Source: Thermoproteota archaeon (GTDB lineage: Archaea; Asgardarchaeota; Jordiarchaeia; Jordiarchaeales; Freyrarchaeaceae). Taken from it: DNA of 25,048 nucleotides. Below are positions 2,026 to 10,112 of this stretch, one piece after another (within the stretch, counting starts at the first letter, position 1; every line of letters starts with the position of its first letter). Made by a program: the position numbers and the translations under genes. The notes beneath the pieces are model-generated. The model saw only the letters and a program-made list of their open reading frames with translations. It did not search any database and was not told the origin of the DNA. The stretch covers positions 1-25,048 of the forward strand of contig JAPDJY010000067.1 of assembly GCA_029258835.1 (NCBI GenBank), written 5' to 3'.

Positions 2026-2620
2026 CCATACAAACTAAAAAGGAACACTTATTAATAATGTTCACCCGCCATCACCCACTCATCATGAACACTCGTTTAA
2101 GGTTCCCCCAAACACTTAACGCGTCACGATGCCGGGAAAGCACTCTTTCAGGGTTTAAACGTTTACCTCAGGCGCATTCCTGAGGTACTAAGTTACGTGT
2201 CTGGCGTTAAATGGTTTCCACACTAAAAGCCGGGGCAGAAACATTCAAAAAATAGCGAAGTATAATATAACCTTCGTAATGAAGTGTGACGTATGAGTGA
2301 AAACTACTACCTCCTAGGGAGGTTTGTAGGAGGCTTAGCGAGGCGAAAGCCAACACGCAACCATTATAGAATACACAGGGCTGCGGCAGTGCGAAGACCA
2401 CGCTGCCCTCTTCCTTCAATCCCCTATTAGGCGACAGTCTGGAATGGAGAGCAAGTAAGGATGCTTTAAGGCTTATCTTGCCTCTCTTTTAACCGACCGC
2501 TTTCTGACCTACAAGCTTCCGTTGGTGTAGAGGCGTGCTGTGCCACAAACATCTGCTTGAGAAAAATTTTTATTCTTAATCCTTTATCTTTCGACAAAAA
2601 GGTTAGGTGCTGGAGGGCTG

Positions 2621-3886
2621 ATGATGAGCTCTGACGGATCTTTCAAGGACGTTTTAGAGTTTTTTGATAGAGCGGCAGAGCGTTTAAAGCTGGAACGATA
2701 CATTTATGACATCCTGAGTAAGCCTCAGAGGTGCCTGTCAGTCTCGTTCCCTGTTAGGATGGATGATGGGAGCATTAGGATCTTCGAGGGGTACAGGGTT
2801 CACTACAATTATGCGTTAGGTCCATGTAAGGGGGGTGTCCGCTACCATCCATCAGTAACGCTAGACGAGGTTACGGCTTTAGCGGCCATCATGACTTGGA
2901 AGTGCTCTCTTGTAGGCCTCCCTTACGGGGGAGGGAAGGGAGGGGTTGCATGCAACCCAACTAAGATGTCTCCTAGCGAGCTTGAAAGGCTTACGAGACG
3001 CTACGTCTACATGGTTCTCCCCTTAATCGGCCCAGAGGTGGACATCATGGCGCCAGACCTTTACACCAACGAGCAGATAATGGCCTGGATGATGGACACG
3101 TACAGCATGCTTAAAGGCTACACTGTTCCCGGGGTGGTTACAGGTAAACCAGTAGATATAGGAGGAACTCTAGGGAGGAATTATGCTACTGGAAGAGGGG
3201 TAGCTATTGTGACCGTTAGAGCGCTAGAGCATTACGGGATTCCCGTGGAAAACGCGACGGTAGCCATCCAAGGGTTTGGGAACGTAGGCGCGTACGCCGC
3301 GAAAGACCTCGCGGAGAGAGGGGTAAAGATAGTAGGGATAACGACAAGTAGAGGCGGCCTCTTTAACCCGGACGGGCTACCAGTCCAGAAACTCTTCGAG
3401 GAGGTATACGTTAACAGGAGACATCCAAGCGAGGTTGGAGGAGGTGATTACATAGGTCCCGCTGAGGCGAACAAAGCAATCCTCGAAATGGACGTAGATG
3501 TGCTGATCCCAGCCGCGATGGAAGAACAGATCACTAGGGAGAACGCAGACAGGATAAACGCGAAGATAGTCGTGGAGGGGGCTAATGCGCCGACCACGAG
3601 CGACGGGGACAGGGTACTGTGCGAGAGGAACATACCGGTCGTCCCAGACGTCTTAGCTAATAGTGGAGGAGTAATAGTGTCGTATTTTGAATGGGTTCAG
3701 GACATTCAGTCGTTCTTCTGGACGGAGGAGGAAGTCGTCAAAAGACTGGATGAGAGAATACTGGACTCGTTCACGAGAGTCATAAACCTAGCTGAGAAAG
3801 AAAAGTTAGACCTGAGAACGGCGGCGTACATGATCGCAATAGACAGAGTTGCAAGGGCTATAAGAATGAGAGGAATATTCCCGTAG
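2621..3886 (+). CDS. gdhA: Glu/Leu/Phe/Val dehydrogenase (glutamate dehydrogenase)
   Basis: GPCKGGVRYHP, PYGGGKGG, APDLYT, TGKP, ATGRG, GFGNVG, EGANAP, PDVLANSGGVIVSYFEWVQ. Confidence 0.95.
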   Translation: MMSSDGSFKDVLEFFDRAAERLKLERYIYDILSKPQRCLSVSFPVRMDDGSIRIFEGYRVHYNYALGPCKGGVRYHPSVTLDEVTALAAIMTWKCSLVGLPYGGGKGGVACNPTKMSPSELERLTRRYVYMVLPLIGPEVDIMAPDLYTNEQIMAWMMDTYSMLKGYTVPGVVTGKPVDIGGTLGRNYATGRGVAIVTVRALEHYGIPVENATVAIQGFGNVGAYAAKDLAERGVKIVGITTSRGGLFNPDGLPVQKLFEEVYVNRRHPSEVGGGDYIGPAEANKAILEMDVDVLIPAAMEEQITRENADRINAKIVVEGANAPTTSDGDRVLCERNIPVVPDVLANSGGVIVSYFEWVQDIQSFFWTEEEVVKRLDERILDSFTRVINLAEKEKLDLRTAAYMIAIDRVARAIRMRGIFP

Positions 3887-4012: not shown

Positions 4013-5368
4013 CTACGCTGCTTGTTTTTTTGTTTCGTCTAGGAGTTTTACTACTTTGTGTCCTACGAATGGTAGTTCTGAGACTGACTTGACGAATTCT
4101 ATCTCAGACTCGACTCCAAGCCTCTCCTTAAGCCTCTCCTTAAGCTTAGCCTTGAAGGCCTCGGCATCATCAACCTTATCCCAGTCAACAGCCAACTTCA
4201 TCCTCAAAACGTCCATGGGGCCTGTTGAGTATTTTATCATGGTAAAGTACTCTGTGAATCCGGGGATGTCGCCTAGGACGTTTTCTATGTCTGCTGGGAA
4301 TATTTTCATTCCTTTTATGTTTGCCATGAATGCTTCTCTTCCTAGGAATGATATTCTGGTGTGGGTTCTTCCGCACTTGCACTTCTCCGTTGTGATGTAT
4401 CCTATGTCTTCTGTGCCCCATTTTATTATTGGGGTTGCCTCGGCGAAGAGGTTGGTGACAGTCACCTCCCCTCTTTCGCCCTCGGCGAGCTTCTCGTGGG
4501 TTTCGGGGTCCCTCACCTCGGTCAGGAAGAGGTCGTCGCAGCTGTGGACACCCTCATGGTAGTCGCAGTCACCCCAATACCACAACGGGTCGGCAACACC
4601 GCCAAAATCGTAAATCTTCTCCGAAGGAACACCAGTCTCGTCCTCAAGCCTCTTCTTCACCGCCTTCGTAACTATGTCACCGTAGCCCGTGTCTATAATC
4701 TTCGTGTTGGAGAAGATCTCTTTTGGATCGACTCCGGACTTCTTAGCGGTCTCAATTATGGAGTAGAGTGTGAGGATTGGCCCGCCGTAAACCTCCGGCT
4801 TATATCCTCTCAGCACTTGCATGTGCTTCGCTGAAAGATAGGGCAGAGGGTAGCCGCAGTCTAGGTAAGCGCCGAAGCCTATTATATCCGCTGCGGTGTA
4901 GGCCAGGACGACGTAGCCATGCCACCTAAAACCGGTGAAGTATACCTTAGTCCCTGCCCTGTACCCTCTCCCCCACTTAACCCTGAGATCCTGCTCCACA
5001 GCCATCATTATGTCGTGTTTTGTGTATGCGAATATTGTTGGGATTCCTGTTGTTCCCGTGGAGGCGTTGATTGAAACCACTCTTTCGTCTAGGGGGACGC
5101 ATAGTATGCCTCCGAAGGGGTCCCCGGTCCTGCTCCTCTCCTCCCTCAAGTCGTCCTTGTACAGCATGGGAACCTTCTCGAAGTCCTCGAGCGACTTGAC
5201 GTCGTCGGGCTTCAGGCCGGCCTCGTCAAACCTCCTGCGGTAGAAGGATGAGTAGTGGTAGGCGTAGTCCAGCTGGTGCCTGAGCCTCCTCAGCTGGAGC
5301 TCCCTCAACTCCTCCCTCGCCATCGTCTCAACAGCAGGATTCCAAAACTTACCCCTCTCAACATCCAA
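4013..5368 (-). CDS. Phenylacetate-CoA ligase (PaaK)-family AMP-forming ligase, full length
   Basis: N-terminal ETMAREELRELQ, P-loop ASTGTTGIP, EGERGEVTVTNL, CKCGRTH-x-RI, and C-terminal LPFVGHK retaining the A10 lysine. Confidence 0.88.
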   Translation of the reverse strand: MDVERGKFWNPAVETMAREELRELQLRRLRHQLDYAYHYSSFYRRRFDEAGLKPDDVKSLEDFEKVPMLYKDDLREERSRTGDPFGGILCVPLDERVVSINASTGTTGIPTIFAYTKHDIMMAVEQDLRVKWGRGYRAGTKVYFTGFRWHGYVVLAYTAADIIGFGAYLDCGYPLPYLSAKHMQVLRGYKPEVYGGPILTLYSIIETAKKSGVDPKEIFSNTKIIDTGYGDIVTKAVKKRLEDETGVPSEKIYDFGGVADPLWYWGDCDYHEGVHSCDDLFLTEVRDPETHEKLAEGERGEVTVTNLFAEATPIIKWGTEDIGYITTEKCKCGRTHTRISFLGREAFMANIKGMKIFPADIENVLGDIPGFTEYFTMIKYSTGPMDVLRMKLAVDWDKVDDAEAFKAKLKERLKERLGVESEIEFVKSVSELPFVGHKVVKLLDETKKQAA

Positions 5369-5381
5369 ACAACAACCCTCC

Positions 5382-6422
5382 TTAGAAGACTATTCTCACG
5401 TGGGTTCTTCCGCATCCGCATTCATCTTTGATCAGAGTGACCTTATGATCGGTTTTATACCTTATTAGGGGTGTTGCCTCAGCCCAAAGGTTTGTTATGG
5501 TTAGTAGGCCTTTTTCCCCGGGAGCAGTTGGTTCTCCGGTTTCGGGGTCGACCGTTTCAACTATGAACCCGTCTTCCCATGCGTGAAGCCCGTTCATCTG
5601 GTGACATTCTGAGGCGAAGAAGAGGTTATCCTGTATGTCTAGCATGCATAGATGTGTCCCACCCCACACCTCCTCAAACTCCTTCCTTGTTTTCTCGTCT
5701 AATACTGGGCTGCCGGGTCTAACCCTATGTATGACCACCTTCGTCCCGAACATTTCCTTCGGAGTCTTCCCCTGCTTCTTTGCTTCGTTCACCATGAGCT
5801 TTGCAAAATCGACCATTGTGAGGACTAAATGGGGTTTGAAGAACCCTGTCATATACATTGATCTTGGAAGGTCGAGCATGGGAAGCGTTGCCTCTATTGG
5901 TATGCCCGTGAACGGTATTATGTCTTGAACTGTCCGCCGGCTTGTGAACTGTGCCTCTATGATGCGTCCTATAGCCTCCCACTGGCTTGCCTGAACCTCG
6001 ACTATCTGCCCTCTCCTCAGCCCAGCCATTAACAGGTGCCGAGTTAGGTGGTCCACTAGAACTTCCCTGTCGTTCTCCGTTAGGGCTGTTACGATCACGT
6101 TTCCCTTAACCATCTGCTCTGGAGGATTAAATATCTGCCAAATCTTACTCATCGGCACGCATAACCGTCCTCCGAAGAAGTCCTCATCGGTGACGGCTGC
6201 CGAAAGCTCCTCGCGTGATGTCAAAGGTATTTTCGAAAGGTCGTTTAAACCTTTAATGTCTTCAGGCTTCACCCCCGCGTCACCAAGCTTTTTACGGTAG
6301 AAACGTGAGTTCCAGTAAACATGGCTAACCTGGCGCCTAAGGAGGTCTTCTTGAATGGACTCTATTTCACTTCTAGGCATGGTTTCCACGCTTGTAACCC
6401 ACAAACCCTCCTCACCTGCCAC
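5382..6422 (-). CDS. PaaK-like protein lacking the C-terminal domain and the P-loop; probably non-catalytic
   Basis: ETMPRSEI, ECHQMNGLH, PGEKGLLTITNL, PLIRYKT, and CGCGRTHVRIVF followed by TAA. The P-loop position reads NPPEQMVKG. Confidence 0.8.
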   Translation of the reverse strand: MAGEEGLWVTSVETMPRSEIESIQEDLLRRQVSHVYWNSRFYRKKLGDAGVKPEDIKGLNDLSKIPLTSREELSAAVTDEDFFGGRLCVPMSKIWQIFNPPEQMVKGNVIVTALTENDREVLVDHLTRHLLMAGLRRGQIVEVQASQWEAIGRIIEAQFTSRRTVQDIIPFTGIPIEATLPMLDLPRSMYMTGFFKPHLVLTMVDFAKLMVNEAKKQGKTPKEMFGTKVVIHRVRPGSPVLDEKTRKEFEEVWGGTHLCMLDIQDNLFFASECHQMNGLHAWEDGFIVETVDPETGEPTAPGEKGLLTITNLWAEATPLIRYKTDHKVTLIKDECGCGRTHVRIVF

Positions 6423-6454
6423 ACCTTCTAAGAACTAGTTAATAGTGATCAAAC

Positions 6455-6470
6455 ATATATATAACTTTTT
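6455..6470 (-). promoter_or_regulatory. BRE/TATA-like promoter for the paaK-like pair
   Basis: The minus strand reads AAAAAG-TTATATATATG about 35 nt upstream of the start at 6422. Confidence 0.55.
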
Positions 6471-6591
6471 GTAGTTTTGTAGAATTGGAATTTTCGAAAG
6501 AGGCGAGGGGGTTCACATCTAAAACCCTTGGTTAAGAGCGAACCAGTTTAAAAGGTTCTATTTGAGTGATGGCTGTGATGGCGTTCACGTG

Positions 6592-6600
6592 AAAAAAAAA
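6592..6600 (-). terminator. Oligo-T archaeal terminator after the SCP2 gene
   Basis: Run of nine T on the minus strand, 7 nt after the stop at 6608. Confidence 0.55.
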
Positions 6601-6607
6601 GGAGGGG

Positions 6608-6988
6608 TTAAAACTCTTTAGGCATGGCTGCCATTGTTTGGAGGAGGACTCCGAATCCGTCAGCGTAGGCTAGCAACATCATCATGCTACCGGTGAGAGA
6701 TATTTGCCCGGACATCAGCGCGTCTCTGGCCATCAGCTCAGCTTTCCCCAGCCTAACCCACACTTCGTACGGGCCTTCAAGTACGAAGTCAGCTTCTTCT
6801 CCTGGTTTAGCCTCCCTGACATTCTGGATCTGGCCATCTCTTATCTCAAAGTATACTCCGAAGCCCTTATCCGTCTCCCTTAGTATCATAGATGCGTTAA
6901 AGTCGCCCATCCCCGTTTTAAACGCCGGATTGGCATTAACCTCTTCGGCAAGCTTTTTGAAAAACTCTAAACTGAAATATTTCACCAT
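6608..6988 (-). CDS. Stand-alone SCP2 sterol/lipid-binding domain protein
   Basis: YFSLEFFKKLAEEVN ... ADFVLEGPYEVWVRL ... ALMSGQISLTGSMMMLL is a typical SCP2 pattern. Start chosen at the ATG at 6988 behind GGAGGGG; the ORF track extends to 7015. Confidence 0.82.
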   Translation of the reverse strand: MVKYFSLEFFKKLAEEVNANPAFKTGMGDFNASMILRETDKGFGVYFEIRDGQIQNVREAKPGEEADFVLEGPYEVWVRLGKAELMARDALMSGQISLTGSMMMLLAYADGFGVLLQTMAAMPKEF

Positions 6989-7273
6989 ACCCCTCCACTC
7001 TCCCATCCCATTCACTTGATCTCCTATAATTGGATGGCTTCATTTTTAAGGTTTACTATTTAAATTATTTTTTAATTATTTCCTTTCCGTTAGAAGCAAA
7101 CTTTGCAAGCTTAGTCTGGTAGGTGGCTTCTTTTTGCCAAATCTTTTATCCTTTAACATGAATTTACTTAGCTGGGAAAGGAGGTCTTTGAAAGTTTTTT
7201 ATTTTTCGAATATAAGTATTCATGCGGGCTTTGGGTGGAGCTTTTCACCCGTTGCCCAGGCACCTTTCAGGTC

Positions 7274-7347
7274 TGCTAACAGGATGGGGGGTCGCCTCCG
7301 GCTACGCCCATTTTGTGCGGTGAACTTCACCATCCGTAGCGTTAGGT
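7274..7347 (+). repeat. attC-like site, copy 1 (direct repeat with 8104-8177)
   Basis: TGCTAAC ... GGATGG ... CCATCC ... GTTAGGT, with R''/R'-like ends and an inner inverted pair. Positions 7287-7344 match 8117-8174 at 55 of 58 nt. Confidence 0.6.
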
Positions 7348-7413
7348 GAAATGTCCGTTGCCGCCCTTAAAAGATTTAAAACAGATAATGAAATAAGAAT
7401 AATAGGTGGCAGA

Positions 7414-7707
7414 ATGGAAAAACTTGATGAGATAAGGAAGATCATTGGGGAGCACAAAGAGGAGCTTAGAGAGCAGTATGGTGTCAAGGAAATTGGTATT
7501 TTCGGCTCCTTTGTGAGGGGGGAGGCGAGGGAGGATAGTGACGTTGACGTACTGGTTGAATTTGAGAAACCGATAGGGTTCTTTAGGTTTCTCGAATTGG
7601 AGGAATACCTGGGCAGTTTGACAGGTAGAAAAGTGGACCTTGTATCTAAAAAGGCACTTAAGCCGCACATTGGGAAACATATTCTTGAAGAGGTTATAAT
7701 AATATGA
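7414..7707 (+). CDS. mntA: MNT (minimal nucleotidyltransferase) antitoxin, MntA-like
   Basis: GSFVRGEAREDSDVD fits GSX10DXD; C-terminal GRKVDLV. ATG at 7414 follows AGGTGG. Confidence 0.9.
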   Translation: MEKLDEIRKIIGEHKEELREQYGVKEIGIFGSFVRGEAREDSDVDVLVEFEKPIGFFRFLELEEYLGSLTGRKVDLVSKKALKPHIGKHILEEVIII

Positions 7708-8054
7708 GAAGAACATACAGGGATTACATACTGGACATTTTGTCGTCTATCCAAGAGGTTGAGGAGTTCACCGAGGGCATGGGCTTTGAAGAATTTGTAA
7801 AGGACAGAAAAACTGTAAATGCTGTTATTAGAAGTCTGAAGGTGATGGGTGAGGCAGCGAAGAAAATTCCTTCGGAAATCAGGGACAAATACCCGGAAAT
7901 TCCATGGAAATACATCGCAGGCATGAGAGATAAGCTGATTCACGAATATCACGGCGTTGATTTAGAAATCGTATGGGAAGTCATAGAAAAGGAAGTTCCG
8001 CCTCTCAAACCCAAATTCGAAAAAATACTAGAGGAGTTGAAGAGGCGAAGTTGA
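7704..8054 (+). CDS. hepT: HEPN (DUF86/HepT-like) RNase toxin
   Basis: GMRDKLIHEY fits RX4HXY; GEAAKKIP and PEIPW also present. ATGA overlap with the MNT gene. Confidence 0.9.
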   Translation: MRRTYRDYILDILSSIQEVEEFTEGMGFEEFVKDRKTVNAVIRSLKVMGEAAKKIPSEIRDKYPEIPWKYIAGMRDKLIHEYHGVDLEIVWEVIEKEVPPLKPKFEKILEELKRRS

Positions 8055-8103
8055 AAGGCGGTGGGCGCTTTGTGGCGCTCCGCACCTCGCTCCCATCAGG
8101 GTC

Positions 8104-8177
8104 GCCTAAGGTGATAGGGGTTCGCCTCCGGCTACGCCCATTTTGCGCGGTGAACTTCACCATCTGTAGCGTTATGC
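8104..8177 (+). repeat. attC-like site, copy 2, with a degenerate R'' (GCCTAAG)
   Basis: GCCTAAG ... same 58-nt core ... GTTATGC. CGCCTAAG is two mismatches from CACCTAAC, the complement of the cassette start GTTAGGTG. Confidence 0.55.
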
Positions 8178-8517
8178 TAACATTTTTAGCATTCTGATTT
8201 TAGGATGTTTCACTACGTGAGGTGGGGGTTCGTCTAGTCATCTTTTAGGGGAGTTCTACGAGAGTTACGCTTAACTGGGTGAGAACGGCATCATCAAGGT
8301 GGGAGCTGGCGTAGAAGAGGTCGAGTGAAGTGAAACGATTAAAAGGAAGGTTCTAAACAATGATTAACATGGTTTATGATGGCAGCGTGACCTTAACCAT
8401 GCAACCTAGTAGCATTCTCTTTAAAAGAGAGGAGAGAAAGAAGAGGGTTAACTGGGTGCATGCCTCTGTGAGGTGCTGGTTACTTGAGGGGCTGTGAAGA
8501 ATGAGGGTGATGTTGCC

Positions 8518-9813
8518 TTAGACGAATTTCCTTCTGTCCTCTAGTAGTCTTGCACTTTCTGGTATATCTCCTGGGTTCACTATTTCGACTTCAGACTTTA
8601 TCCTCAGGGCCTGCTTAAACTCTTCCTCTAAGATTTTCTTCATTTCTTCGAACTTTGATGGATCCTTGCATTCCACCTTGATCGTCATTACGTCTGTTAC
8701 CCCTGGGCGCTCAACTATTATCTGGAACCTGCCAAGTTCTGGATGTCTTTTCACGACTTCCTCGGCTTGCTTTGGATGTATGAATACGCCTTTAACCTTC
8801 GTTAACATGTCTATTCTTCCTAGGATTCCCATCAGCCTTGCCTCGGTGCGTCCGCACTCGCACTTCTCCACGTTCAGGACGGAAGCATCCCCTGTCCTGT
8901 AGCGTATTAAGGGGAGAGCCTCCCTTTCGAGTGGGGTTGCAACTATTTCTCCTTCCTCCCCTGGCTCGACAGGCTCCAAGGTGTTCGGGTCGATTATCTC
9001 TATGAGGTAAAACTCCTCGTTAATGTGCATTCCATTATGGTACTGGCACTCACGCGACATAACTCCTAGCTCGGCTACGCCGTAAGCGTCGAAAAGCTCC
9101 ATGTCAAAGGTTTCCTCAAGGTACTTCCTCAGGGAGGGTGGGAGAGGCTCTGCTCCGCACAGTCCAACCCTTAACTTCAAATCCTTCTTGGGGTCTATGC
9201 CCATCTTCTTCGCTTCCTCAGCCAGCCTAGCGAGGAAGCTCGGTGTTCCAGCGTATATTGTTGTCCCAAGAGATTTCATGAATTCAAGCTGCATCCTGCT
9301 CTCACCCGGACCAGCCGGTATGATCGTTAGGCCTGCACTCTCGGCAGCCATGTGGACGAAGAAGCCAGCGGGCATAAAGTGGTAGGAAAGGGTTATTTGT
9401 ATGACGTCGCCTGGCTGAGGCTCGTAAACGTGCGTTTTAAGGAGGATCCTTCTAGTTATTTCGAGGTCTTTCTCCGTGTAGGGTTCAAAAATGGGCCCTG
9501 GGGAAATGAATACCAAGCGTAGCTTCTCCTTCGGGACGGCTAGGAATTCCCCATATGGGGGATGCTGCCTCTGGTTAGCTACAAGCTCGTGCTTACTTGT
9601 GAAGGGAACCTTCTTGAAGAAGTCGTCTAAGCTTCTTATGTCGTCTGGTTTCACGCCAGCCTCGTCAAACTTCCTGTGATAGTAGGGTGAGTTCTCGTAC
9701 GCATACCTCACCATAGCCAGTGCCTTCTTCTCCTGCAGGCGTCTCAGTTCCTCCCTACTCATTGTCTCGGTTTCAAACAGTGGCCTACCCAAAATCCCTC
9801 CTCCTAAAGCCAC
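8518..9813 (-). CDS. Phenylacetate-CoA ligase family protein, SPGP-loop subtype
   Basis: ETMSREEL, FISPGPIFEP, GTPSF, GAEP, DAYGVAE, PLIRYRTGD, CECGRT, GRIDMLTKVKGVFIHP. Confidence 0.88.
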   Translation of the reverse strand: MALGGGILGRPLFETETMSREELRRLQEKKALAMVRYAYENSPYYHRKFDEAGVKPDDIRSLDDFFKKVPFTSKHELVANQRQHPPYGEFLAVPKEKLRLVFISPGPIFEPYTEKDLEITRRILLKTHVYEPQPGDVIQITLSYHFMPAGFFVHMAAESAGLTIIPAGPGESRMQLEFMKSLGTTIYAGTPSFLARLAEEAKKMGIDPKKDLKLRVGLCGAEPLPPSLRKYLEETFDMELFDAYGVAELGVMSRECQYHNGMHINEEFYLIEIIDPNTLEPVEPGEEGEIVATPLEREALPLIRYRTGDASVLNVEKCECGRTEARLMGILGRIDMLTKVKGVFIHPKQAEEVVKRHPELGRFQIIVERPGVTDVMTIKVECKDPSKFEEMKKILEEEFKQALRIKSEVEIVNPGDIPESARLLEDRRKFV

Positions 9814-10112
9814 CTAAAGAAGATAAAAAGAGGTTTATAACTTAAAAAGGTAACCTTACACGTGAGCTGCTCCCCCAGGGATTGAATGGTTGGCAGATTT
9901 TTAACGGAAGGTTATTTTATTCTTAAGTTGACGGATGGAGGGGGTTGCTGGCTTACGTGTATACGTTTCACAGGTGTGTAAGTGCAAGGTGTATCCGAGC
10001 GTTTGGGTGGGTGATAACCCGGAAGTCGGTGAAAACGAGTGGAGGGCCCCGGGCTGGCGGCAGATTTTTATTATTTATCATTTATTTATCATTTTGGCTT
10101 CCATACTTACTT

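What the first reader, a model, noticed from the sequence alone, without database searches (positions are those of the whole stretch)
7274..8177. Toxin-antitoxin pair packaged as an orphan integron-like cassette in an archaeal chromosome
Seen: two repeats exactly 830 bp apart (55/58 identical core) bracket only mntA-hepT. Each begins near CTAA(C/G), and identity stops right after GTTA. The cassette start GTTAGGTG has a near-complement CGCCTAAG at the head of the downstream repeat. A loose inverted pair (GCCGCCCTT near 7360, AAAGGCGG near 8055) hugs the genes, and the cargo is AT-richer than its neighbours. Established: attC sites have RYYYAAC...GTTRRRY ends with crossover at G^TT, TA modules are common cassette cargo, and integrase-less attC clusters are reported in archaea. 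Inference: a stranded, partly degenerate cassette, implying a repeat family and perhaps an IntI elsewhere in this lineage.
Basis: partly seen in the sequence, partly recalled or inferred. Interest (0 to 1): 0.72.

Follow-up and report, generated by a model that had tools for sequence, protein, structure and literature searches.

The report
Integron-like toxin-antitoxin cassette, Asgard archaeon
The two repeats around this toxin-antitoxin gene pair are worn copies of a gene-cassette recombination site found across many archaeal phyla. The pair is therefore a stranded mobile cassette that landed inside a host operon, built like an integron cassette but tied to a shorter, Xer-like enzyme rather than a true integron integrase.

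Summary
A 58-nt core (55/58 identical) at 7287-7344 and 8117-8174, 830 bp apart, brackets only mntA-hepT.

My first tests argued against a cassette. The core has only two copies in the genome. Neither strand folds significantly. No IntI gene was found.

Comparative evidence reversed that reading:
- A paralogous TA module on contig C60 sits beside a conserved platform. The platform is the 5' stub of a divergent 269-aa tyrosine-recombinase gene, then a promoter region, then a G|TT junction. It recurs in at least ten archaeal lineages with a different cargo each time.
- The C38 cassette starts at exactly that junction (G|TTAGGTGAAATG).
- In nine other cassettes the first 8 nt are the perfect reverse complement of an 8-mer (R'') in the cassette's own 3' site. 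C38 scores 6/8 plus one G-T.
- A site profile built without C38 finds both C38 repeats (E 5.6e-7 and 6.6e-5).
- 18 of 19 site hits near the recombinase lie upstream of it on the opposite strand.

The recombinase lacks the IntI-specific domain. The right-hand site is degenerate, and no excision was seen. Earlier notes of this scan describe the same system on other DNA.

The parts
6608..7015 (-). SCP2 sterol-carrier-like gene, the host flank. In related genera it lies directly downstream of the PaaK-type ligase gene.
   Evidence: Pfam SCP2 9e-9. In relatives G007-G010 the orthologues of the 8518-9813 ligase and of SCP2 are adjacent, at most about 85 nt apart, with no TA module between them.
7090..7341 (+). 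Candidate preceding cassette, ORF-less and 252 bp, ending in site L. It starts at G|TTAGAAGC (G at 7089). Low confidence.
   Evidence: GTTAGAAG at 7089-7096 matches 7/8 the reverse complement of site L's R'' (CTGCTAAC). 236 of 5000 shuffles of 7016-7225 do as well. It resembles other cassette starts (TTAGnnGnAAAC). No convincing ORF.
7226..7341 (+). Site L, an attC-like cassette recombination site. Parts: 5' extension 7226-7272; R'' CTGCTAAC 7273-7280; A; stem arm GGATGG 7282-7287; 42-nt inner part 7288-7329; stem arm CCATCC 7330-7335; spacer GTAGC plus crossover G 7336-7341.
   Evidence: A profile HMM built without the C38 rows hits 7235-7335 at E 6.6e-5 genome-wide. The geometry (R'', then A, stem, 42-nt loop, stem, 5 nt, G|TT) is the same as in recombinase-linked sites of other phyla. 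Its R'' is the exact complement of the cassette start GTTAGCAG seen in L097 and L099. It therefore belongs to a cassette other than the TA one.
7342..8171 (+). The mntA-hepT gene cassette, 830 bp, from TTAGGTGAAATG to the crossover G of site R.
   Evidence: The 5' boundary coincides with the G|TT junction downstream of the recombinase platform in C60, C44, G014, L090-L097. Homology with the C60 paralog's 5' flank starts at GCGTTA(A/G)GTGAAATG.
7365..7385 (+). Putative cassette promoter (A/T-rich TATA-like box) about 30-45 nt upstream of mntA. Inferred.
   Evidence: Read from the sequence. The 5' flank 7345-7413 is conserved with the C60 paralog: local score 28 against 9.0 +/- 1.5 in shuffles.
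7414..7707 (+). mntA, a minimal nucleotidyltransferase antitoxin (type VII TA), 97 aa.
   Evidence: Pfam NTP_transf_2 4.2e-19; NCBIfam MntA_antitoxin 2.7e-14, below its cut-off. The sister strain has a 1-nt deletion at 7398, which rules out the longer 7351 start.
7704..8054 (+). hepT, a HEPN RNase toxin, 116 aa, with the R-x4-H motif. It overlaps mntA by ATGA.
   Evidence: Pfam HepT-like 2.1e-32; translation.
8056..8171 (+). Site R, the TA cassette's own attC-like site, degenerate. Parts: 5' extension 8056-8102; R'' CGCCTAAG 8103-8110 (AAC changed to AAG); stem arms GATAGG 8113-8118 and CCATCT 8160-8165 no longer pair cleanly; spacer plus crossover G 8166-8171.
   Evidence: A profile HMM built without the C38 rows hits 8060-8163 at E 5.6e-7. 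The 5' extension and inner part are homologous to the 3' sites of the C60 paralog and of cassettes in G014 and Archaeoglobus. R'' against the cassette start gives 6/8 plus 1 G-T. No perfect stem was found. P(R-box pairing) is 0.002.
8172..8517 (+). Trailing non-coding segment of unknown origin. It has a terminator-like hairpin with a T-run at about 8175-8191, and a possible outer junction GATG|TTGCC (8512|8513) 5 nt from the ligase stop codon.
   Evidence: Read from the sequence. No homologue in the genome or in relatives. No TA coding relic. Relatives have at most about 85 nt between the two host genes, so this segment is also inserted DNA.
8518..9813 (-). PaaK-type (phenylacetate-CoA-ligase-like) AMP-binding enzyme gene, the host flank.
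   Evidence: Pfam AMP-binding plus AMP-binding_C_2. 75% identical orthologues lie directly upstream of SCP2 in relatives.

Best explanation
**What it is.** The 1.5-kb stretch between the host genes for a PaaK-type ligase and SCP2 is a small gene-cassette array without an integrase. It belongs to an integron-like system found across archaeal phyla.

**The cassette.** The mntA-hepT pair is one 830-bp cassette (7342-8171). It begins with the second half of the crossover site (G|TTAGGTG...). It ends with its own attC-like site, site R (8056-8171).

**The left repeat.** Site L (7226-7341) is the site of a preceding cassette, probably an ORF-less one.

**How such cassettes move (inferred by analogy).** A roughly 269-aa Xer/IntI-like tyrosine recombinase excises them as circles and inserts them by recombination at G|TT.
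- Shown: the recombinase gene sits divergently next to a conserved docking site.
- Shown: this genome holds only dead stubs of that gene, on contigs C44 and C60.
- Inferred: the catalysis itself.

**Present state.** Site R has lost its AAC and its stem, and no recombinase is nearby. The cassette is probably stranded. The addictive toxin-antitoxin pair may help keep it in place. The insertion split what is an adjacent ligase-SCP2 gene pair in relatives.
For: 1. Boundary. C60 1977-2124, just upstream of a paralogous TA module, is a conserved platform. A pattern scan also finds it in Archaeoglobus, Woesearchaeota, Alkanophaga, Thermoplasmatales, Methanomicrobia, Helarchaeota and Asgardarchaeum. 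Its left part is the reverse complement of the N-terminus of a tyrosine recombinase. Conservation ends at ...CG|TT followed by different cargo: TA, DNA-repair genes, a methyltransferase, DUF6506, DUF92. C38 shares this junction exactly.
2. Complementarity rule. The cassette start G+7 nt equals the reverse complement of R'' in the cassette's own 3' site, 8/8, in C60, C44, L096, L097 and in L099, L100, L130, L164, L129.
3. Family membership. An HMM built from C60, C44, G014, Archaeoglobus and Woesearchaeota sites, without C38, finds C38 R at 5.6e-7 and C38 L at 6.6e-5. It also finds sites on C14, C48, C29, C18 and C15.
4. Link to the recombinase. In 80 loci of the recombinase, 18 of 19 site hits lie upstream of the gene on the opposite strand. 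That space is about 9% of what was searched. The hits are 0.6-7.6 kb away, and some form arrays of 2-3.
5. Structure. 16 of 19 recombinase-linked sites have a perfect 9-11-bp stem one nt after R'', with at least a dozen different stem sequences. Site L has the same geometry with a 6-bp stem.
6. Insertion. Relatives have the ligase and SCP2 genes adjacent.
Against: - The C38 sites are not found by a profile built only from the DPANN-type recombinase-linked sites. That profile does find C60 (1.5e-9), C44 and C14, so membership is partly by a chain of homology.
- Neither strand of either repeat folds better than shuffles, z -0.5 to -0.8. R-box pairing probability is 0.14 for L and 0.002 for R.
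- End motifs of this quality occur about 11,000 times in the genome.
- The window holds no recombinase or docking platform. The only intact tyrosine recombinase in the genome, on C50, is unrelated.
- No empty site, joint or circle junction appeared in contigs of four runs. No strain without the cassette was found.
- The nearest paralog, C60, is only about 64% identical, so no recent movement is shown.
- The start of the preceding cassette and the outer right junction are uncertain.
Confidence: 0.8

Rival explanations
1. Relic of ordinary duplication or homologous recombination. The right repeat is simply the TA module's own 3' flank. The left repeat is a leftover 3' flank of a lost neighbouring TA copy, or a microhomology-mediated (GCGTTA) duplication. 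The 58-nt core is kept alike by gene conversion. No site-specific system is involved.
For: - The core is 95% identical while the 17-60 nt to its left are only about 60-70% alike.
- The right flank is shared with TA paralogs on C60 and C18.
- Other TA loci show duplication relics: C21 and G014 C6.
- The left core changed at 5 positions between two strains, as a neutral relic might.
Against: - The junction falls on the exact G|TT used next to the recombinase platform in ten or more loci.
- The same '3' flank' follows non-TA cargo in other phyla, so it is a cassette site and not a hepT 3' UTR.
- Site L carries an R'' that matches a different cassette class, GTTAGCAG.
- No relic of hepT or mntA coding sequence lies upstream of L.
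Confidence: 0.1
2. A canonical integron remnant (CALIN). The repeats are true attC sites served by an IntI integrase with the IntI-specific domain, as in the archaeal integrons of Ghaly et al. 2022.
For: - Integrons, mostly integrase-less attC clusters, are reported as enriched in Asgard archaea, with TA cargo common (PMC9668308).
- R''/R' motifs fit RYYYAAC / GTTRRRY loosely, and the crossover is at G|TT.
Against: - The recombinase that is physically linked to this site family scores below the IntI cut-off: TIGR02249 193-195 bits against 265. It matches in two stretches that skip model positions about 175-237, which I take to be the IntI-specific region. Its best match is archaeal XerA.
- No IntI is in the genome.
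- The site geometry differs from textbook attC (own knowledge): 1-nt spacer, perfect 9-11-bp stem, conserved inner motif, and no evident extrahelical bases.
Confidence: 0.07
3. The repeats are functional RNA or regulatory elements of the TA operon: a structured 3' UTR/terminator downstream and an insulator or leader upstream. They would not be recombination sites.
For: - A metatranscriptome contig covers 7965-8152, that is hepT into site R.
- A terminator-like hairpin with a T-run follows site R.
- A small hairpin just after the stop codon shows some compensatory change.
Against: - No Rfam match.
- No significant fold.
- Weak consensus structure with an unfavourable covariation term.
- The element follows unrelated genes in other phyla and obeys the cassette-start complementarity rule, which an RNA role does not explain.
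Confidence: 0.03

Closest known systems
Integrons and integrase-less attC clusters (CALINs), including the archaeal integrons of Ghaly et al. 2022 (PMC9668308)
   Same: - One promoter-less or self-promoted cargo unit per cassette, each followed by a folded, imperfectly palindromic site.
- Crossover at G|TT, so the cassette's first bases complement R'' of its own site.
- Arrays diverge from a tyrosine-recombinase gene with a docking site.
- TA modules are frequent cargo.
- Two sites less than 4 kb apart without an integrase fits the CALIN definition.
   Different: - The linked recombinase is about 269 aa and lacks the IntI-specific domain. It scores best as archaeal XerA.
- The sites have a 1-nt R''-to-stem spacer, a perfect 9-11-bp stem without evident extrahelical bases, and a conserved inner motif.
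- Here the array lies in a host operon, not beside a docking site.
- Whether Ghaly's attC calls include this family was not tested.
Cassette insertion outside integrons at secondary GTT sites (single attC sites lacking an integrase; attG-type insertion in bacteria). This is from my own knowledge, not checked in the library.
   Same: A cassette, or a short array, sits in ordinary chromosomal DNA with no platform, bounded by G|TT.
   Different: This is an archaeal host and a non-IntI recombinase family. The outer junctions here (7089|7090 and 8512|8513) are only candidates.
XerA/dif chromosome-dimer resolution of archaea (NCBIfam NF040815)
   Same: The linked recombinase scores 212-215 bits on the XerA model, just under the 220 cut-off.
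   Different: - It is 67-86% identical across phyla. I read this as horizontal spread rather than vertical housekeeping.
- It is flanked by variable cassettes and is often decayed.
- In this genome it is carried with IS6-type ends.
HepT/MntA (HEPN/MNT) type VII toxin-antitoxin modules (Yao et al. 2020, PMC7641770)
   Same: - Minimal nucleotidyltransferase gene followed by a HEPN gene with an R-x4-H motif.
- 4-nt overlap between the genes.
- Small sizes, 97 and 116 aa.
   Different: Both proteins score below NCBIfam's equivalog cut-offs. Their activity is untested here.

Membership tests
Integron (canonical: IntI + attI + attC cassettes) | Integron integrase with the IntI-specific additional domain | tested here: not met
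   - The genome has one unrelated tyrosine recombinase (C50) and one dead fragment (C44).
- The family linked to these sites scores 193-195 bits on TIGR02249 against a cut-off of 265. It matches in two stretches that skip about 60 model positions.
Integron (canonical: IntI + attI + attC cassettes) | Site ends R'' (RYYYAAC) and R' (GTTRRRY), with crossover at G|TT and R'' complementary to the cassette's first bases | tested here: met
   - Site L: TGCTAAC 5/7 and GTTAGGT 7/7.
- Site R: GCCTAAG 6/7 and GTTATGC 6/7.
- TA cassette start against the R'' of site R: 6/8 plus 1 G-T.
- The rule is 8/8 in nine other cassettes of the family.
- The motifs alone are uninformative: about 11,000 such pairs occur in the genome.
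Integron (canonical: IntI + attI + attC cassettes) | Inner L''/L' pairing giving a hairpin on a single strand | tested here: inconclusive
   - Family: perfect 9-11-bp stems with many compensatory variants in 16 of 19 recombinase-linked sites.
- Site L: 6 bp (GGATGG/CCATCC).
- Site R: broken.
- Minimum-free-energy folds of both repeats are no better than shuffles.
Integron (canonical: IntI + attI + attC cassettes) | Extrahelical bases and attC covariance model (IntegronFinder / HattCI) | not testable with these tools
   No attC model is in Rfam or in the toolset. No bulged bases are evident in the well-preserved stems.
CALIN (cluster of attC sites lacking an integrase) | At least two sites less than 4 kb apart, same orientation, no integrase nearby | tested here: met
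   The two sites are 830 bp apart on the same strand. No recombinase hit lies on the window's contig C38 in the whole-genome search.
Xer-like-recombinase cassette system (noted earlier in this scan; no paper found) | Site-family profile match independent of the query | tested here: met
   A profile without the C38 rows gives R at 5.6e-7 and L at 6.6e-5. A profile from DPANN-type sites alone does not reach C38, but it does reach its paralog's site on C60 at 1.5e-9.
Xer-like-recombinase cassette system (noted earlier in this scan; no paper found) | Array starts at a docking platform next to the divergent recombinase gene | tested here: not met
   No platform or recombinase stub is in the window. 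Both exist on C60 and C44 of the same genome.
HepT/MntA type VII toxin-antitoxin | MNT nucleotidyltransferase gene plus HEPN gene with an R-x4-6-H motif, adjacent or overlapping | tested here: met
   Pfam NTP_transf_2 4e-19 and HepT-like 2e-32. ATGA overlap. The GS...D.D and RDKLIH motifs are visible in the translations.

The most novel reading that the evidence does not exclude
**The system.** The repeats would belong to a distinct archaeal gene-cassette system that no paper I could find describes. It would have three parts:
- a roughly 269-aa Xer/IntI-like recombinase without the IntI domain;
- its own docking platform;
- attC-like sites laid out as R'', then A, an 11-bp stem, a conserved inner motif, then ...G|TT.

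**Its reach.** It spans DPANN, Thermoplasmatota, Methanosarcinales, Archaeoglobi and Asgard archaea. It is sometimes carried between IS6-type ends.

**The consequence.** The C38 locus would show that its cassettes can also settle at non-platform sites inside host operons. If so, many integrase-less archaeal 'attC clusters' may be served by this Xer-like enzyme and not by IntI.
Probability: 0.45. Interest if true: 0.75.

Novelty: new variant of a known kind. Interest (0 to 1): 0.58.

Why it matters
- **Testable enzymology.** The locus ties an isolated pair of repeats in an Asgard chromosome to a cassette system shared by many archaeal phyla. The system copies the logic of integrons with a simpler, Xer-like recombinase. 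This gives a concrete question: can a Xer-type enzyme without the IntI domain recombine folded sites at G|TT?
- **Gene flow.** It suggests a route for gene exchange among archaea in hydrothermal sediments.
- **Method.** Cassette sites that have diverged in sequence are invisible to BLAST-type repeat searches. They can still be recognised from their boundary rule: cassette start equals the complement of R''.
- **Local effect.** The insertion split a conserved ligase-SCP2 gene pair and may be held in place by an addictive toxin-antitoxin module.

Tried and rejected
- Core copies elsewhere: none beyond the two in the own genome (BLAST, blastn-short, nhmmer single sequence). None in 400 Asgard genomes. 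None in genome contigs by exact pattern. One metagenome contig was found, and it is a sister strain. This nearly led me to reject the cassette idea.
- tRNA and Rfam: no tRNA, and no Rfam family at gathering score or at E up to 10.
- Coding potential of the repeat: rejected, because of strain differences and an indel.
- GGTGAACTTCACC as a genome-wide operator: only two other copies, both apparently inside ORFs, with unrelated flanks.
- Relic of hepT or mntA coding sequence in either flank: none.
- Empty site or circle: no joints in contigs of X1, X8, X11, X19. Contigs cannot show rare forms, so this is weak.
- SCP2 synteny in the same family: no orthologue. The search for related loci with SCP2 found nothing.
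- Other repeat-bracketed TA modules in the genome: only C21, which has a different origin.
- hepT 3' flanks of 30 Asgard homologues: no similar element.
- Consensus RNA structure of five copies: weak.
- A third site in 8172-8517: not found.
Full report
**1. Observation**

The window holds a direct repeat at 7270-7344 and 8100-8174, 88% identical over 75 nt. Its core, 7287-7344 / 8117-8174, is 55/58 identical and the spacing is exactly 830 bp. Chance does not give this: a 24-mer from the core occurs twice against 0 expected.

Between the copies lie only two genes:
- mntA (7414-7707), a nucleotidyltransferase;
- hepT (7704-8054), a HEPN RNase. The two overlap by ATGA.

The cargo is modestly AT-richer than its neighbours. 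A metagenome contig from a sister strain (L016, 98.3% identical over 11.4 kb) has the same layout. Logan contigs of other runs bridge both repeats.

**2. First round of tests, which pointed away from a cassette**

- The core has only two copies in the 2.7-Mb genome.
- It has no significant match in 400 Asgard genomes and none in the species-representative collection by exact pattern.
- Neither strand of either copy folds better than shuffled sequence as DNA or RNA, z -0.5 to -0.8.
- Pairing of the putative R boxes has probability 0.14 (left) and 0.002 (right).
- End motifs of that quality occur about 11,000 times in the genome.
- No IntI is present. There is one divergent tyrosine recombinase on C50 and one dead fragment on C44.
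- No tRNA or Rfam family matches.
- Contigs of four runs show no joint that skips the cassette.

**3. Context**

In a related genus of the same order (G007-G010), the orthologue of the 8518-9813 ligase gene is followed within about 85 nt by the SCP2 orthologue, on the same strand. In this genome the two are 1502 bp apart, so the whole of 7016-8517 is largely inserted DNA. The pair is also inverted relative to the neighbouring ligase genes.

**4. Paralogs give the lead**

- A hepT remnant on C18 (81% identical) shares the sequence downstream of the stop codon up to about 8115.
- A decayed mntA-hepT on C60 (about 64% identical) shares both flanks.
  - The 5' flank homology (score 28 against 9.0 +/- 1.5 in shuffles) starts at GCGTTA(A/G)GTGAAATG, exactly where the left repeat ends.
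  - The 3' flank contains a collinear homologue of the right repeat.
That agent read it as a decayed integron-type cassette beside a capture platform. I treated this as a lead and tested it.

**5. The platform**

C60 1977-2124, directly upstream of the paralog, is a conserved non-coding block. It has 71-84% identical copies on C44 of the same genome, next to the dead recombinase fragment, and in other Asgard genomes. A pattern scan finds it in Archaeoglobus, Woesearchaeota, Alkanophaga, Thermoplasmatales, Methanomicrobia, Helarchaeota and Asgardarchaeum.

Its left part is the reverse complement of the first codons of a tyrosine-recombinase gene reading away from it. Intact relatives have these properties:
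- They are about 269 aa long and 67-86% identical across phyla.
- They carry Phage_int_SAM_4 plus Phage_integrase domains.
- They score best as archaeal XerA, 212-215 bits against a cut-off of 220.
- Their second-best match is integron integrase, 193-195 bits against a cut-off of 265. That match comes in two stretches that skip about 60 model positions. I take those positions to be the IntI-specific domain.

To the right, conservation runs to ...CG|TT and then gives way to different cargo in every locus: TA, three DNA-repair genes, a methyltransferase, DUF6506, DUF92. The C38 cassette begins at the same nucleotide, but its left partner is the left repeat instead of the platform.

**6. The boundary rule**

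In integrons, the first bases of an integrated cassette are the far half of R', and so they complement R'' in the cassette's own site. I tested this across the family.
- The 8 nt G|TTxxxxx at the cassette start have an exact reverse complement near the 3' end in C60 (+778), C44 (+2265), Archaeoglobus L096 (+1815) and Woesearchaeota L097 (+719). G014 gives 7/8.
- Inside arrays next to the recombinase, the rule holds 8/8 for the first cassettes of L099 and L100 and the second cassettes of L130, L164 and L129.
- In C38, the TA cassette start against the R'' of the right repeat gives 6/8 plus one G-T.
- The left repeat's R'' (CTGCTAAC) is the exact complement of a different cassette start (GTTAGCAG), one seen in L097 and L099. 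The left repeat is therefore the site of a preceding cassette.
- A candidate start for that cassette lies at 7089|7090 (7/8; P about 0.05). That would make it a 252-bp ORF-less cassette.

**7. The site family**

After R'' the sites share a layout: one A, a stem arm, an inner part with a conserved motif, the second stem arm, 4-6 nt, then G|TT. About 45 nt upstream of R'' are also conserved.

- What I first took for a hepT 3' UTR is this upstream extension. It also follows non-TA cargo.
- A profile HMM built from five sites, excluding C38 (C60, C44, G014, Archaeoglobus, Woesearchaeota), finds the right repeat at E 5.6e-7 and the left at 6.6e-5 in the whole genome. It also finds sites on C14, C48, C29, C18 and C15.
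- In 80 loci of the recombinase, 18 of 19 site hits lie upstream of the gene on the opposite strand. The hits are 0.6-7.6 kb away, and some form arrays of two or three. That space is about 9% of what was searched.
- Sixteen of these 19 sites have a perfect 9-11-bp stem with at least a dozen different sequences. This is strong compensatory variation.
- The left repeat has the same geometry with a 6-bp stem.
- The right repeat has lost the AAC of R'' and its stem pairing.
- A profile from the DPANN-type sites alone reaches C60, C44, C14, C15, C18 and C59, but not C38. C38's membership therefore rests partly on a chain through closer relatives.

**8. Explanation**

The locus is a short cassette array without an integrase, belonging to an integron-like system, lodged between two host genes.

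| Shown | Inferred |
|---|---|
| Family membership of both sites | Excision as a circle |
| The shared G|TT boundary | Catalysis by the 269-aa enzyme |
| The complementarity rule | The present immobility of the TA cassette |
| The physical link of the family to the recombinase | The way the array reached a non-platform site |
| The insertion relative to related genomes | |

The terminal sites on C14, C44, C60 and C15 are followed by a conserved sequence ending in the reverse complement of a GGTTCTGTT-type end.

**9. Rivals**

- Plain duplication or gene-conversion relic (0.10). It explains the mosaic identity. It does not explain the exact shared junction, the foreign R'' of the left site, or the same element behind unrelated cargo.
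- Canonical IntI-dependent integron (0.07). It fails on the recombinase.
- RNA element (0.03). It does not explain the boundary rule.

**10. Comparison and novelty**

Integrons and integrase-less attC clusters are reported in Archaea. They are enriched in Asgard genomes and often carry TA cargo (PMC9668308). Those authors required the IntI-specific domain for their six IntIs. The enzyme linked to this family lacks it. Two literature searches found no description of a Xer-like-recombinase cassette system.

Earlier notes of this scan describe the same or similar systems on other DNA: e1-5484869, e1-5484786, e1-5484787, e1-1199561, e1-1093984. This is therefore not the first sighting within the scan. 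I rate it a new variant of a known kind.

**11. Limits**

- No attC covariance model was available.
- Reads were available only as contigs.
- The outer junctions and the origin of 8172-8517 remain open.

Noticed in passing
window 4013-9813, compared with L021-L024: Relatives have the order ligase<-, truncated ligase<-, ligase->, SCP2->. This genome has ligase<-, truncated ligase<-, SCP2<-, insert, ligase<-. The ligase-SCP2 block is therefore inverted as well as split by the insert.
   Followed up: partly
window 7291, 7309-7311, 7316, compared with L016: The left site differs at 5 positions (3 events) between two strains that are 98.3% identical overall. The right site and the last 680 bp of the insert do not differ at all. 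The ancestral left core was 57/58 identical to the right core.
   Followed up: partly
window 6131-6960 against 7000-9900 (run X1, contig L016): Strain divergence drops from about 4%, with many small indels, in the 6250-6750 intergenic/SCP2 region to under 1% from about 7000 onwards. This suggests a recombination or sweep boundary at the start of SCP2.
   Followed up: no
G000 C18:20452-20640 (L072): A hepT 3' remnant, 81% identical to the window's gene, keeps the site's 5' extension up to R''. It then jumps straight to TTATGCTAC, resembling the sequence that follows site R. It looks as if the inner 55 nt of the site were cleanly deleted.
   Followed up: partly
G000 C14:53722-53846, C48:10985-11082, C29:21285-21360, C18:6856-6992(-), C15:23450-23539(-), C59:5358-5425(-): These are further members of the cassette-site family in the same genome. 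The C18 site is followed by G|TTAAGTGAAATGCCCGCC, a cassette start also seen in a Thermoplasmatales contig and in another Asgard genome.
   Followed up: partly
G000 C14, C44, C60, C15, just after the last site: A conserved tail TTAYACCAAYAATAAGYTAACAGAACC follows the terminal site. Its end is the reverse complement of a GGTTCTGTT-type (IS6-like) terminal repeat. The platforms therefore appear to be transposon-borne.
   Followed up: partly
L087 (G014 C6) about 2600-3520: A TA cassette is docked at a recombinase-less platform in another Asgard genome. Its hepT is broken, and it is followed by a second copy of the first 55 nt or so of mntA. This is a different kind of flanking duplication.
   Followed up: no
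G000 C21:3663-5301: A HEPN-MNT pair is bracketed by two direct repeats, 47 nt at 91% and 36 nt at 89%. One of them overlaps the 3' end of the MNT gene. It looks like the relic of a tandem TA duplication, not a cassette site.
   Followed up: partly
loci L098-L177: In most of the 80 recombinase loci the contig ends within a few hundred bases upstream of the gene, where the cassette array should lie. The arrays probably break metagenome assemblies.
   Followed up: no
window 8360-8497: A 45-codon ORF in the trailing segment is 100% conserved in the sister strain. No family was assigned.
   Followed up: no
G000 C48, C49, C59, C90: Self-comparison shows arrays of an identical 37-nt repeat with about 77-nt periodicity, which look like CRISPR arrays.
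   Followed up: no
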